This document shows, piece after piece, positions 22,153 to 59,009 of a stretch of DNA of 64,000 nt. The notes under the pieces are model-generated. The model was not told where the DNA came from. It did not search any database and saw nothing but the letters and a program-made list of their open reading frames with translations. Each line of letters begins with the position of its first letter. Within the stretch, counting starts at the first letter, position 1. The DNA is taken from NCBI RefSeq assembly GCF_003334405.1, contig NZ_QOWM01000001.1. One strand, 5' to 3'. The stretch comes from Escherichia coli (GTDB lineage Bacteria > Pseudomonadota > Gammaproteobacteria > Enterobacterales > Enterobacteriaceae). The translations under genes were made by a program, and so were the position numbers.

Positions 22153-22402
22153 CAGTTTAGCTGCAATATATTAGTAAAGCTTATTACTGAGTTTGCGAAT
22201 AATAAAAAAAAGCAGTCTATATAATATCTCGATATTATTTTATTTATATTCATGCGTTGCATATGAAAGTTTATGCACCACAGCGAATATCTCTCCATTC
22301 TTAGTGATCTACCTCACCTTTTAAACGCGCTTGCCGAATTTTGTTATTTACTCTGACGAAAAATTGTCACGATACACGAAAGTTTTTCACAGGCGGCGAC
22401 TC

Positions 22403-22738
22403 ATGGATAAAGAACGCATCATTCAGGAATTTGTGCCCGGCAAACAGGTCACACTGGCGCATCTCATCGCGCATCCCGGTGAGGAACTGGCGAAGAAAAT
22501 CGGCGTTCCGGATGCGGGCGCAATTGGCATTATGACGCTAACTCCCGGCGAAACGGCGATGATCGCCGGTGATTTAGCGCTGAAAGCCGCTGATGTGCAT
22601 ATCGGTTTTCTCGACCGATTCAGCGGTGCATTGGTGATTTATGGCTCGGTGGGCGCAGTAGAAGAAGCGTTATCACAAACCGTCAGCGGTTTAGGTCGCT
22701 TATTAAATTATACGCTTTGTGAAATGACCAAAAGTTAA
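22403..22738 (+). CDS. eutS: Ethanolamine-utilisation microcompartment shell protein EutS
   Basis: 111-aa product [21 protein letters not shown]...; ATG at 22403, the ORF-track start being an upstream extension. Confidence 0.9.
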
Positions 22739-52934: not shown

Positions 52935-53669
52935 TTAATTTTCGTGAGGAAACGCCGTAAGGTCATCAATCATTTTTTGAAGTATTGGTGAGTCCTGACC
53001 GTCACCCCATTGAAGAATTTTTGCGGTAAGCTGATGACGCGCTAGTGCATTGAGTCCCATCTTTTTAAGTTTATGGGAGATTTTACCCATGACTTTAATC
53101 TGACCGAATGCAGTTGCGTAGGTAATCATATTGCTCTGGATAGTGCTCATTTCATCGACTAGTAATTGCGCACGAACATCCTCTTCAAGAATACTGTCCA
53201 TAGCGATGTATTTCATACCCCACATAGTTTCAATTAACATTTGAGGGAAATCAGCACAGTCCAGATCCGGCTCTTTACGGAGGCTATTTTCAAGAACGTT
53301 TAGAGCATCAGCACCTTCATCGCTGCCAAAAGGAGATTCTTCATCCCAGCAACACATATAAAGTGGATCAGTAAAATGGCACTGGAAGTTTGGGTGTGAC
53401 GTTTTAACATGTAACCCAATTTCTTCATCATCAAAATAGTAGCGATCCATGAAGTTAAACTTTGGATCTTCTTGATAGCCTTTCTTCATTTTTGCGGCAA
53501 TCAATTTACTGGCTTCTTTCAGACACTGTTCTTCATTATCGAACTCTTTTGTCTGGAATTTACCAATACTACCTACCTTGCCATAGTTGACAGCTAAACT
53601 ATCCCCTTCGTAATCTATCCACCAAAATTTATTCGATTTTTCATCGTGATAAATAAAGCGTTTTTTCAT
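52935..53669 (-). CDS. yfeS: WGR-domain protein YfeS
   Basis: 244-aa product MKKRFIYHDEKSNKFWWIDYEGDSLAVNYGKVGSIGKFQTK... (WGR-like N-terminus); AT-rich codon usage. Confidence 0.8.
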   Translation of the reverse strand: MKKRFIYHDEKSNKFWWIDYEGDSLAVNYGKVGSIGKFQTKEFDNEEQCLKEASKLIAAKMKKGYQEDPKFNFMDRYYFDDEEIGLHVKTSHPNFQCHFTDPLYMCCWDEESPFGSDEGADALNVLENSLRKEPDLDCADFPQMLIETMWGMKYIAMDSILEEDVRAQLLVDEMSTIQSNMITYATAFGQIKVMGKISHKLKKMGLNALARHQLTAKILQWGDGQDSPILQKMIDDLTAFPHEN

Positions 53670-55074: not shown

Positions 55075-55584
55075 TTACTTCTTGATGCGGATAACCGGGG
55101 TTTCACCCACGGTTACGCTACCGGACAGTTTGATCAGTTCTTTGATTTCGTCCATGTTGGAGATAACAACCGGAGTCAGGGTAGACTTGGCTTTCTCTTC
55201 CAGCAGCGGCAGATCAAATTCAATGACAGTATCGCCAACTTTCACGCGCTGACCTTCTTCAGCAATACGCTTGAAGCCTTCGCCTTTCAGTTCAACGGTG
55301 TCGATACCGAAGTGGACGAACAGTTCAACGCCGCTATCAGATTCGATAGAGAATGCGTGGTTGGTTTCAAAGATTTTACCAATGGTGCCGTCTACTGGCG
55401 CGACCATTTTGTTACCCGTTGGTTTGATAGCAATACCATCACCAACGATTTTTTCCGCAAAAACGACATCCGGCACGTCTTCGATATTGACGATCTCGCC
55501 AGAGAGCGGAGCAATGATCTCAATAGTTCCGGTATCCTTCTTGTCGTCGGAAACCAGAGATTTCAGTTTATCGAACAAACCCAT
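55075..55584 (-). CDS. crr: PTS glucose-specific EIIA component
   Basis: 169-aa product [39 protein letters not shown]... Confidence 0.97.
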
Positions 55585-55624: not shown

Positions 55625-57352
55625 TTAGCAGATTGTTTTTTCTTCAATGAACTTGTTAACCAGCGTCATTAACTCGTCCGTTGTCGGTTGAGCAAGAGCC
55701 TGCTCTGCTAACACCTTCGCATCTTCGAAGTTCGTGTTACGGATAATCTTCTTAATGCGCGGGATAGAAATGGCGCTCATAGAGAATTCGTCCAGACCCA
55801 TCCCCAGCAACAGAAGTGTAGCACGTTCATCGCCAGCAAGCTCACCACACATGCCAGTCCATTTGCCTTCAGCATGAGAAGCATCAATAACTTGCTTGAT
55901 CAAGTTCAGCACGGACGGTGACATTGGCTGGTAAAGGTGTGAAATCATATCATTACCACGGTCAACTGCCAGAGTGTACTGCGTTAAATCATTGGTGCCG
56001 ATACTAAAGAAATCAACTTCTTTGGCTAAATGACGTGCAATTGTTGCGGCAGCCGGTGTTTCCACCATTACGCCGATTTCAATTGACTCGTCAAACGCTT
56101 TACCTTCGTCGCGCAGTTCCTGTTTGTAGATTTCGATCTCTTTGCGCAGTGCACGCACTTCTTCAACAGAGATGATCATCGGGAACATAATGCGCAATTT
56201 ACCGAAAGCCGAGGCACGCAGGATAGCGCGGAGCTGATCGCGCAGGATCTCTCTACGATCCATCGCGATACGGATAGCGCGCCAGCCGAGGAACGGGTTC
56301 TCTTCTTTCGGGAAGTTCATGTATGGCAGCTCTTTGTCGCCGCCGATGTCCATGGTACGAACGATAACCGCTTGCGAGCCACACGCTTCAGCCACTGCTT
56401 TGTAAGCAGCAAACTGTTCTTCTTCAGTGGGCAGTGCGTCGCGGTCCATGAACAGGAACTCAGTACGATACAGACCAACGCCTTCAGCGCCGTTACGCTC
56501 TGCACCTTCAACGTCACGAACCGTACCAATGTTAGCGCATACTTCTACCTGGTGACCGTCCAGCGTAATAGCTGGCAGATCTTTCAGTTTAGCAAGCTCT
56601 GCTTTTTCAGAAGCCACTTGCTCCTGAACAGCGCGCATTTTATCAATAACTTCGTTGGTTGGATTGACGTAAACCTGATTATTTACGGCATCCAGAATCA
56701 GATAGTCGTCATTTTTCACCTGAGAGGTGACGCTACCGGTACCCACGATAGCAGGTAGTTCCAGAGAACGCGCCATGATAGAGGTGTGGGAAGTACGGCC
56801 ACCCGCGTCGGTGATGAAACCCAGCACCTTCTTCAGGTTCAGCTGTGCGGTTTCGGACGGCGTCAGGTCAGCGGCAACCAGAATGACTTCATCCTGAATG
56901 GCGCTCAGGTCGATAATCTTCAGGCCCAGGATGTTGCGCAGCAGGCGCTTACCGATATCACGTACGTCAGCCGCACGTTCTTTCAGGTATTCATCATCCA
57001 GCTCTTCCAGGGCAGAAGCCTGACCTTCGATAACTTCATGAGCAGCTGCGTCAGCTGTCATGTGCTTATCTTTAATCAGGGCTATGATTTCCTGCTCCAG
57101 CTCCTCATCTTCGAGCAGCATAATATGCCCTTCAAAGATGGCTTCTTTTTCTTCACCGAACGTTTCACCAGCTTTCGTTTTGATCGTTTCCAGCTGGGCT
57201 GATGCCTTGGCACGACCGCTCAGAAAACGTTCAACTTCCTGATCAACCTGGTCGGCAGAAATTTTTTTCCGGTCAATGACAATTTCGTCTTCTTTCAGAA
57301 GCAGAGCTTTACCGAAAGCGATACCCGGGGATGCTAAAATGCCTGAAATCAT
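55625..57352 (-). CDS. ptsI: PTS Enzyme I
   Basis: 575-aa product [29 protein letters not shown]... Confidence 0.97.
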
Positions 57353-57396: not shown

Positions 57397-57654
57397 TTAC
57401 TCGAGTTCCGCCATCAGTTTAACCAGATGTTCAACCGCTTTCTGCTCGTCTTCGCCTTCTGCGGAGATAGTCACAACGGTACCTTGAGTCAGGCCCAGAG
57501 TCTGCAGTTTAAACAGGCTTTTCGCGCTGGCGCTTTTGCCGTTGGAAGTCACAGTAATTTCAGAAGTGAAGCCCTTAGCTTCTTTTACAAACTGGGCAGC
57601 AGGGCGGGTGTGCAGACCGTTCGGAGCGGTAATGGTAACTTCTTGCTGGAACAT
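57397..57654 (-). CDS. ptsH: PTS phosphocarrier protein HPr
   Basis: 85-aa product [29 protein letters not shown]... with the active-site His15 context. Confidence 0.97.
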
Positions 57655-57894
57655 TGTATTTCCCCAACTTATAGGTTTAGTGTTGTGGAACTAAAGTCTA
57701 GCCTGGCGGTTCGACTTTAGCCTGTATTGTTAGCGCCAGTTTTTAACAGACGCGACGCACGAAGAGCGCAATACAGTCCATTGCTGGCGGGTGTTGACCG
57801 CTGACGTTTCGTACGTCATTAAACATTATGCCGCTAAAGGAAGAATTGAACCAAATCATAAAATCGATTCAGCTTTGGCTTTTCCTGTAACGAT

Positions 57895-57916
57895 TAATTT
57901 CGCGCATCAAAATAAT
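57895..57916. promoter_or_regulatory. Candidate Mlc/NagC-type operator in the ptsH promoter region
   Basis: ttaatttcgcgcatcaaaataa: AT-rich arms with dyad symmetry around a central GC core, about 240-260 bp upstream of the ptsH start. Confidence 0.35.
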
Positions 57917-57986
57917 TAGTCTGGTTAAATACCAGTTCCGACAGGCTGAATCAATGCCAGGAGGGGCGAAAGTTTGAAGCAGGCCA

Positions 57987-58016
57987 CAAAAAAGCACCTA
58001 AAAAGGTGCTTTTTTA
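57987..58016. terminator. Rho-independent terminator of cysK (bidirectional-looking)
   Basis: aaaaaagcacc-taaaaa-ggtgctttttt immediately 3' of the cysK stop on the minus strand. Confidence 0.6.
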
Positions 58017-58037
58017 CGCATTTTTAACAAGCTGGCA

Positions 58038-59009
58038 TTACTGTTGCAATTCTTTCTCAGTGAAGAGATCGGCAAACAATGCGGTGCTTAAATAACGCTC
58101 ACCCGATGATGGTAGAATAACCACAATATTCTTGTTGGTAAAGCTTTCATCTTCTTGTAGTTTCAACGCCGCGGCAACAGCTGCTCCAGAAGAGATACCT
58201 GCAAGAATACCTTCTTCTTCCATCAGACGACGCGCGGTAGAAATCGCTTCTTCATTGGTGATGCCAATGACTTTATCGACCAGCTTGAGATCGAGGTTAG
58301 CCGGGATAAAACCAGCGCCAATACCCTGAATTTTATGCGGGCCAGGTTTAATCTCTTCACCTGCCAGCGCCTGGGCGATAACTGGAGAATCGGTTGGCTC
58401 AACGGCGACAGAGATAAGATCGGTCTTGCCTTTGGTGCCTTTAATGTAGCGGCTGACGCCAGTCAGCGTACCGCCAGTCCCAACGCCAGCAATAAATACA
58501 TCAACCTGACCGTCGGTATCTTCCCATATCTCCGGACCGGTGGTCTTTTCGTGAATTTCAGGGTTTGCCGGATTGCTGAATTGTTGCAGCAGCAGGTATT
58601 TCTCTGGATTGCTGGCGACAATTTCTTCTGCTTTTTGGATTGCGCCTTTCATGCCTTTAGCACCTTCCGTCAGCACCAGGTTTGCACCTAACGCTTTCAG
58701 CAGCTTGCGGCGTTCAATACTCATGGTTTCTGGCATGGTCAGGGTGAGTTTGTAACCGCGAGCGGCAGCTACATAGGCCAGTGCAATCCCGGTATTACCG
58801 CTGGTCGGTTCAACCAGTTCAACGCCTGGTTTCAGCACGCCGCGCTTTTCGGCATCCCAAATCATGTTGGCACCGATACGGCACTTAACGCTGAAGCTGG
58901 GGTTACGAGATTCCACCTTCGCCAGAATGCGTCCGTTACCGATGCGATTCAGGCGAACCAGCGGCGTGTGACCGATAGTCAGCGAGTTATCTTCAAAAAT
59001 CTTACTCAT
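58038..59009 (-). CDS. cysK: Cysteine synthase A (O-acetylserine sulfhydrylase A)
   Basis: 323-aa product [42 protein letters not shown]... Confidence 0.97.

What the first reader, a model, noticed from the sequence alone, without database searches (positions are those of the whole stretch)
57895..57916. Dyad-symmetric AT-rich operator candidate (Mlc/NagC type) upstream of ptsH
ttaatttcgcgcatcaaaataa has AT-rich arms around a GC core and lies in the ptsH upstream region, where Mlc is known to act. The exact coordinates of the known operator are recalled from memory, not verified.
Basis: partly seen in the sequence, partly recalled or inferred. Interest (0 to 1): 0.12.

Follow-up and report, generated by a model that had tools for sequence, protein, structure and literature searches.

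The report
Known Mlc operator of ptsH P0
This 23-bp AT-armed sequence upstream of E. coli ptsH is the already-described binding site through which the glucose-responsive repressor Mlc shuts off the upstream promoter of the sugar-transport (PTS) operon, so the finding is correct but ordinary.

Summary
The window is E. coli. cysK, ptsH, ptsI and crr lie on the minus strand. The full element is the 23-mer ATTATTTTGATGCGCGAAATTAA (minus strand, 57916..57894), centred 251 nt upstream of the ptsH ATG.

It meets every published sequence criterion for an Mlc/NagC operator:
- TT/AA at positions ±5,6.
- AT-only arms at ±7 to ±11.
- A/T at ±11, the Mlc-type signature.

A weight matrix built from 10 NagC operators, none of them this site, ranks it first of 63,978 positions in the window. 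A published genome scan lists the identical 23-mer at ptsH.

In an alignment of 37 Enterobacterales it is the most conserved block of the cysK-ptsH intergenic region. Equivalent sites lie upstream of ptsH in Vibrionaceae, Aeromonas and some Pasteurellaceae, with invariant arms and lineage-specific cores.

It lies just downstream of conserved -35/-10-like hexamers and a CRP-like box, so bound Mlc would block the P0 promoter.

I could not read the original footprint papers. Direct binding therefore rests on reviews and on my recollection.

Verdict: interpretation supported, already known, low interest.

The parts
57894..57916 (-). 23-bp Mlc-type operator ATTATTTTGATGCGCGAAATTAA, centre at 57905, 251 nt upstream of the ptsH ATG
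   Evidence: Sequence. Weight-matrix rank 1 of 63,978. Only place in the window that meets the TT-N9-AA/AT-arm rule. Identical 23-mer listed for ptsH in PMC3098098. Most conserved 23-nt block of the intergenic region in 37 Enterobacterales, 0.89 against 0.61 identity.
57926..57931 (-). Inferred -10 hexamer TATTTA of the upstream ptsH promoter (P0)
   Evidence: Conserved block CTGGTATTTAACC in 37 Enterobacterales, 17 bp downstream of TTGATT. This is an inference. The consensus promoter scan reported no sigma-70 match at its threshold, as expected for a weak, activator-dependent promoter.
57949..57954 (-). Inferred -35 hexamer TTGATT of P0
   Evidence: TTG.TT is conserved and lies 17 bp from TATTTA. 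Inference.
57973..57988 (-). CRP-like box TGTGGcctgctTCAAA, centred 60.5-61.5 bp upstream of the inferred P0 start (57919/57920)
   Evidence: Matches the CRP consensus with two mismatches. That match is not significant alone: 18 matches against 25 expected. Both half-sites are conserved across Enterobacterales. CRP sites in the ptsHI promoter region are mentioned in PMC8085971.
57397..57654 (-). ptsH (HPr), first gene of the regulated ptsHI-crr operon
   Evidence: The ORF translation is HPr. RefSeq annotates cysK and ptsH under 100%-identical E. coli matches.

Best explanation
This is the operator of the ROK-family repressor Mlc at the upstream (P0) promoter of the E. coli ptsHI-crr operon. 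An Mlc oligomer contacts the two AT-rich arms, whose invariant TT and AA lie 9 bp apart. The site spans roughly +4 to +26 relative to the inferred P0 start, immediately downstream of the -10 element. Bound Mlc would therefore block RNA polymerase binding or escape at P0.

When glucose is being transported, dephosphorylated EIICB-Glc (PtsG) sequesters Mlc, and P0, which is helped by CRP, is derepressed.

Shown here: the sequence match, its statistical exceptionality, its position, and its deep conservation. Taken from the literature: Mlc represses ptsHI and is sequestered by PtsG. Inferred: the exact transcription start and therefore the steric mechanism.
For: Operator criteria met:
- All criteria published in PMC4288165 and PMC1874608 are met: 23-bp quasi-palindrome, TT at -6/-5, AA at +5/+6, AT-only ±7 to ±11, A/T at ±11.

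Statistical exceptionality:
- A symmetrised matrix from 10 NagC operators that do not include this site scores it 18.2 bits (20.1 without ±11). That is rank 1 of 63,978 window positions and inside the training range of 17.0-24.7.
- The simple rule finds only this place, against 0.40 expected.

Literature:
- The identical 23-mer 'attattttgatgcgcgaaattaa' is assigned to ptsH in PMC3098098 Table 2.
- Mlc represses ptsHI and is titrated by dephosphorylated EIIB-Glc (PMC1156936; PMC10100716; PMC8085971).

Conservation:
- 79 of 105 ptsH upstream regions from gamma-proteobacterial species carry a site of at least 15 bits. Only 1.9% of 1,909 control 450-nt windows from the same loci do.
- In a MAFFT alignment made without reference to the motif, the operator is the most conserved 23-nt block of the intergenic region in 37 Enterobacterales (0.89 against 0.61).
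- The arms are invariant while the central 9 bp differ by lineage: GATGCGCG in Enterobacterales, TAGCTTC in Vibrio, TCGTTAT in Aeromonas. This is the pattern expected of a dimeric HTH protein site.
- Positions ±11 are A/T in 45/46 and 46/46 Enterobacterales orthologues.
- The 51 nt around the site are 100% identical in 5,414 of 5,427 E. coli records.

Position:
- The site lies directly downstream of conserved -35-like and -10-like hexamers and a conserved CRP-like box at class-I spacing.
Against: - Physical binding at exactly these bases rests on secondary statements and on my memory.
- The matrix was built from NagC sites, not Mlc sites, so it cannot by itself tell the two paralogues apart.
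- The table of orthologous sites was selected by matrix score, which forces TT/AA to appear conserved. Only the alignment is free of that bias.
- The P0 start site is inferred, not measured, and the consensus promoter scan found no sigma-70 match.
- The dyad symmetry is weak, 6 of 11.
- Aeromonas orthologues carry G at -11, which is the NagC-like signature.
Confidence: 0.93

Rival explanations
1. The site is used mainly by NagC, the N-acetylglucosamine repressor and paralogue of Mlc, rather than by Mlc.
For: It was picked up with a NagC-trained matrix both here and in PMC3098098. The Mlc and NagC logos are 'essentially indistinguishable' (PMC4288165).
Against: High-affinity NagC sites carry C/G at ±11. 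This site has A at both positions, and its Enterobacterales orthologues have A/T in 91 of 92 positions. PMC4288165 states there is no cross-regulation at physiological protein levels. The literature assigns ptsHI to the Mlc regulon.
Confidence: 0.04
2. The conserved block is an RNA element in the 5' leader of the P0 transcript, such as a hairpin or an sRNA or RNase target, and not a DNA operator.
For: By inference the block lies at +4 to +26 of the P0 transcript, so it would be transcribed. The arms can pair into a 6-bp A-U stem.
Against: The predicted fold is no more stable than shuffled sequence: -6.3 kcal/mol, z = +0.58, and 139 of 200 shuffles fold at least as well. There is no Rfam match in the region, and the three weak hits lie elsewhere and far below gathering scores. 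What is conserved is a fixed TT-N9-AA spacing with AT arms, which matches a defined protein-binding motif.
Confidence: 0.02
3. It is a chance AT-rich near-palindrome in an intergenic region and has no function.
For: The palindromy is weak, 6 of 11, a level reached by 7.3% of AT-rich 23-mers. Intergenic DNA is AT-rich.
Against: It ranks first of 63,978 positions against an independent matrix. It is the most conserved block of the intergenic region across 37 genera-level relatives. Equivalent sites occur upstream of ptsH in other orders.
Confidence: 0.01

Closest known systems
Mlc operator at E. coli ptsH P0 (one of the six native Mlc sites counted in PMC4288165; footprinted, as I recall, by Kim et al. 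1999 JBC 274:25398, Plumbridge 1999 Mol Microbiol 33:260 and Tanaka et al. 1999 Genes Cells 4:391)
   Same: Same organism and same intergenic region. The sequence is the same as the ptsH 23-mer printed in PMC3098098. The position relative to the inferred P0 start agrees with the recalled footprint.
   Different: Nothing detectable. This appears to be that site itself.
NagC operators (nagE, nagB, chbB, chiP, fimB and others; list in PMC3098098 Table 1)
   Same: Same 23-bp architecture, TT-N9-AA, AT-rich arms and often a CG-containing core. This site scores within the range of true NagC sites.
   Different: This site has A/T at ±11 instead of C/G. It controls a general PTS operon of the glucose (Mlc) regulon, not amino-sugar genes.
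Mlc sites at Salmonella hilE P3 (PMC1874608)
   Same: Same consensus description (TT-9 bp-AA, AT-rich ±7 to ±11, imperfect dyad). One hilE site also overlaps the transcription start, at -10 to +12.
   Different: The hilE promoter has two sites 98 nt apart. At ptsH only one strong site is seen, plus a weak overlapping match at 57911..57933.

Membership tests
Mlc/NagC (ROK-family repressor) operator | 23-bp quasi-palindromic site | tested here: met
   The 23-mer at 57916..57894 has 6 of 11 self-complementary half-site positions. The literature describes these sites as imperfect dyads.
Mlc/NagC (ROK-family repressor) operator | Invariant TT at -6,-5 and AA at +5,+6 (TT-N9-AA) | tested here: met
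   ATTAT-TT-TGATGCGCG-AA-ATTAA. The criterion comes from PMC4288165.
Mlc/NagC (ROK-family repressor) operator | AT-rich arms at ±7 to ±11 | tested here: met
   The arms ATTAT and ATTAA are all A/T. The criterion comes from PMC1874608. This is the only place in 64 kb that meets the combined rule.
Mlc/NagC (ROK-family repressor) operator | Score within the range of experimentally known sites under a matrix built without the candidate | tested here: met
   18.2 bits against a training range of 17.0-24.7, rank 1 of 63,978.
Mlc-specific (as opposed to NagC-specific) operator | A or T at positions ±11 (C/G marks high-affinity NagC sites) | tested here: met
   A at -11 and A at +11. Orthologues in Enterobacterales have A/T at 45/46 and 46/46. 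The criterion comes from PMC4288165.
Mlc-specific (as opposed to NagC-specific) operator | Located at the promoter of a gene of the Mlc regulon (ptsG, ptsHI, manXYZ, malT, mlc) | tested here: met
   The site is upstream of ptsH. ptsHI is listed as Mlc-repressed in PMC1156936, PMC10100716 and PMC8085971. The overlap with the P0 start is inferred from conserved hexamers.
Mlc-specific (as opposed to NagC-specific) operator | Physical protection of these bases by purified Mlc (footprint or EMSA) | not testable with these tools
   The primary papers are not held. My recollection is a DNase I footprint at about +1 to +25 of P0.
Mlc-specific (as opposed to NagC-specific) operator | Derepression in an mlc mutant or by glucose, dependent on this site | not testable with these tools
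   Operon-level repression by Mlc is stated in the literature.

The most novel reading that the evidence does not exclude
The single strong operator may not act alone. A weak second TT-N9-AA match at 57911..57933 shares one arm with it and covers the inferred -10 element, so Mlc oligomers might occupy two overlapping registers at P0. Separately, the operator is an ancient element kept upstream of ptsH from Enterobacterales to Vibrionaceae, Aeromonas and some Pasteurellaceae. Its cores are lineage-specific, and Aeromonas has G at -11. That could track lineage-specific changes in the Mlc/NagC linker that reads position ±11.
Probability: 0.1. Interest if true: 0.25.

Novelty: already known. Interest (0 to 1): 0.06.

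Why it matters
The finding matters only as a check on the scan. A reader working from sequence alone located a textbook regulatory site to within one base.

The Mlc operator at ptsH P0 is part of the well-studied circuit that couples glucose transport to expression of the general PTS proteins. No new biology follows from finding it again.

The modest added value here is the quantitative picture. The site is the best NagC/Mlc-matrix match in 64 kb. It is the strongest phylogenetic footprint in the cysK-ptsH spacer. It has invariant arms and lineage-specific cores across several gamma-proteobacterial orders.

Tried and rejected
**Primary footprint and sequence papers**
- I tried to read Plumbridge 2001 NAR (PMC29661, PMID 11139621), El Qaidi & Plumbridge 2008 (PMC2446801), Kim et al. 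1999 (PMID 10464268), the Deutscher 2006 review (PMC1698508), De Reuse & Danchin 1988 (PMC211377) and Pickering 2014 (PMC4054158). None is held.
- Full-text searches for 'pts P0', 'ptsHp0' and similar terms found nothing.
- A search for the operator sequence itself found only the FITBAR paper.
- PMC4288165 has no supplementary text held.
- PMC6143558 and PMC2759082 gave no promoter-level information.

**Genome annotation**
- The MG1655 RefSeq record annotates no binding site or promoter here.

**Sequence tests that did not help**
- The consensus sigma-70 scan found no promoter in 57600..58100, so the P0 hexamers are inferred from conservation only.
- The CRP consensus search with two mismatches is not enriched in the window, 18 matches against 25 expected. 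The CRP-like box therefore rests on conservation and spacing.
- Dyad symmetry as a criterion was rejected as uninformative, because 6 of 11 is reached by 3.9% of all 23-mers.
- The RNA-element reading was rejected on the fold z-score and the absence of an Rfam hit.

Full report
**Where we are**

The window is Escherichia coli. The 421-bp stretch 57640..58060 is 100% identical to many complete E. coli chromosomes and is present in 5,426 of 5,426 genomes, where the flanking genes are annotated cysK and ptsH. ORF listing gives these genes on the minus strand:
- cysK, 59009..58038
- ptsH (HPr, 85 aa), 57654..57397
- ptsI, 57352..55625
- crr, 55584..55075

The MG1655 RefSeq record shows the same order and annotates no regulatory feature in the spacer.

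**The observation**

Read on the ptsH strand and extended to the 23 bp used in the literature, it is ATTATTTTGATGCGCGAAATTAA. This spans 57916..57894, with its centre at 57905, 251 nt upstream of the ptsH ATG.

The description 'AT-rich arms around a GC core' is accurate. 'Dyad-symmetric' holds only loosely: 6 of 11 half-site positions are self-complementary, which 3.9% of all 23-mers and 7.3% of AT-rich 23-mers in the window also reach. Symmetry is not what makes the site stand out.

**Is it more than chance?**

Yes, on motif grounds. Plumbridge and colleagues define Mlc and NagC operators as similar quasi-palindromes in which only TT/AA at ±5,6 are invariant. [quoted passage not shown] The Salmonella hilE paper adds an AT-rich region at ±7 to ±11 (PMC1874608). 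The candidate meets all of these.

Two tests quantify this:
- The combined rule WWWWWTT-N9-AAWWWWW is met only at this place in 64 kb, against 0.40 expected from shuffles.
- I built a symmetrised weight matrix from the ten NagC operators in FITBAR Table 1 (PMC3098098), none of which is the ptsH site. The candidate scores 18.2 bits, or 20.1 without ±11. That is rank 1 of 63,978 positions and inside the training-site range of 17.0-24.7.

**Literature identity**

Table 2 of the same FITBAR paper lists, as hit 15 of a genome-wide NagC-matrix scan of MG1655, 'ptsH attattttgatgcgcgaaattaa'. This is the identical 23-mer, and it is the only paper in the held library containing the sequence.

Reviews and expression studies state that Mlc represses ptsHI. 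They also state that dephosphorylated EIIB-Glc titrates Mlc when glucose is transported (PMC1156936; PMC10100716; PMC8085971). PMC4288165 counts six native Mlc sites.

The primary footprint papers are not held. From memory, Kim et al. 1999 reported protection at about +1 to +25 of P0.

**Comparative evidence**

A degenerate DNA pattern for the HPr peptide [14 protein letters not shown] retrieved 120 loci from one-genome-per-species contigs. They span Enterobacterales, Vibrionaceae, Aeromonadaceae, Pasteurellaceae, Orbaceae and others.
- Of 105 loci with 450 nt of upstream sequence, 79 carry a site of at least 15 bits. Only 1.9% of 1,909 control windows from the same loci do.
- A MAFFT alignment of the whole cysK-ptsH spacer from 37 Enterobacterales was made without reference to the motif. 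In it the operator is the most conserved 23-nt block, with mean identity to E. coli of 0.89 against 0.61 for the rest of the spacer.
- Across lineages the arms (±5 to ±10) are essentially invariant while the central nine bases differ by lineage: GATGCGCG in Enterobacterales, TAGCTTC in Vibrio and TCGTTAT in Aeromonas. That is the pattern expected of a dimeric DNA-binding protein contacting two half-sites.
- Positions ±11 are A/T in 45/46 and 46/46 Enterobacterales orthologues. Aeromonas has G at -11.
- Within E. coli the 51 nt around the site are identical in 5,414 of 5,427 records.

One caveat applies. The orthologue table was selected by matrix score, so TT/AA conservation there is partly circular. 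One search does not have that problem.

**Promoter context and mechanism**

The same alignment shows further conservation islands upstream of the operator:
- TGTGG...TCAAA at 57988..57973, a CRP-like box with two mismatches. The consensus match is not significant on its own.
- TTGaTT at 57954..57949.
- After 17 bp, TATTTA at 57931..57926.

Reading these as CRP site, -35 and -10 places the P0 start at about 57919/57920. The CRP box then sits at -60.5 or -61.5, which is class-I spacing, and the operator at about +4 to +26. The generic sigma-70 scan found no promoter, which fits a weak, activator-dependent promoter but leaves the start site inferred.

On this layout Mlc bound at the operator would occlude RNA polymerase or block its escape. 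Glucose transport would relieve this through sequestration of Mlc by PtsG, a step taken from the literature.

Downstream there are two more conserved features:
- A conserved box GCTGAATCGATTTT at 57873..57860. It is the only window match to a Cra-type pattern that I wrote from memory.
- A conserved CATAAT around 57829..57824, which may be the -10 element of the downstream promoter.

**Rivals**

- *NagC rather than Mlc.* This is disfavoured by A/T at ±11 and by the stated absence of cross-regulation.
- *An RNA element in the P0 leader.* This is disfavoured because the fold is no better than shuffles (z = +0.58) and there is no Rfam hit.
- *Chance.* This is excluded by rank and conservation.

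**Verdict**

The element is the already-known Mlc operator of ptsH P0. Novelty: already known. Interest: low.

Noticed in passing
window 53635..53657: GATTTTTCATCGTGATAAATAAA is the second-best NagC/Mlc-matrix hit in the window (16.1 bits) and has TT/AA at ±5,6. It lies inside the first codons of the minus-strand ORF 52935..53669, just below its ATG. It could be chance or an unrecognised site at that gene's start.
   Followed up: partly
window 22343..22365: GTTATTTACTCTGACGAAAAATT scores 12-13 bits. It is the same 23-mer listed as hit 19 ('eutS') in the FITBAR genome scan (PMC3098098). It sits at the start of ORF 22331..22738 (+), downstream of a 759-aa ORF.
   Followed up: no
window 57911..57933: A weak second TT-N9-AA match, AATAATTAGTCTGGTTAAATACC (12.8-14 bits, rank 3-4 in the window). 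It shares one arm with the main operator and covers the inferred P0 -10 element. The inverted repeat CTGGT-ATTTA-ACCAG (57935..57921) in the same place was flagged as terminator-like.
   Followed up: no
window 57860..57873 (- strand): The conserved box GCTGAATCGATTTT lies about 45 nt downstream of the inferred P0 start. It is the only window match to a Cra/FruR-type pattern written from memory and is conserved in 37 Enterobacterales. It is probably the known Cra site of the pts promoter region. Cra repression of ptsHI is mentioned in PMC2759082 and PMC8085971.
   Followed up: partly
window 57988..58015: The cysK terminator hairpin AAAAAAGCACCT-AAAA-AGGTGCTTTTTT is highly conserved. Its T-run on the minus strand abuts the upstream half (TGTGG) of the CRP-like box of ptsH P0.
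   Followed up: partly
window ~57824..57834 (- strand): A conserved GCGGCATAATG block contains a good -10-like hexamer, CATAAT, about 100 bp downstream of the inferred P0 start. It is plausibly the -10 element of the downstream ptsH promoter, P1.
   Followed up: no
loci L025, L038, L092, L100, L111, L112, L119 (Aeromonas), about 217 nt upstream of ptsH: Aeromonas species carry a very high-scoring site, GTTATTTTTCGTTATAAAATAAT (21-23 bits), upstream of ptsH. It has G at -11, the NagC-type signature, unlike the A/T seen in Enterobacterales and Vibrio.
   Followed up: no
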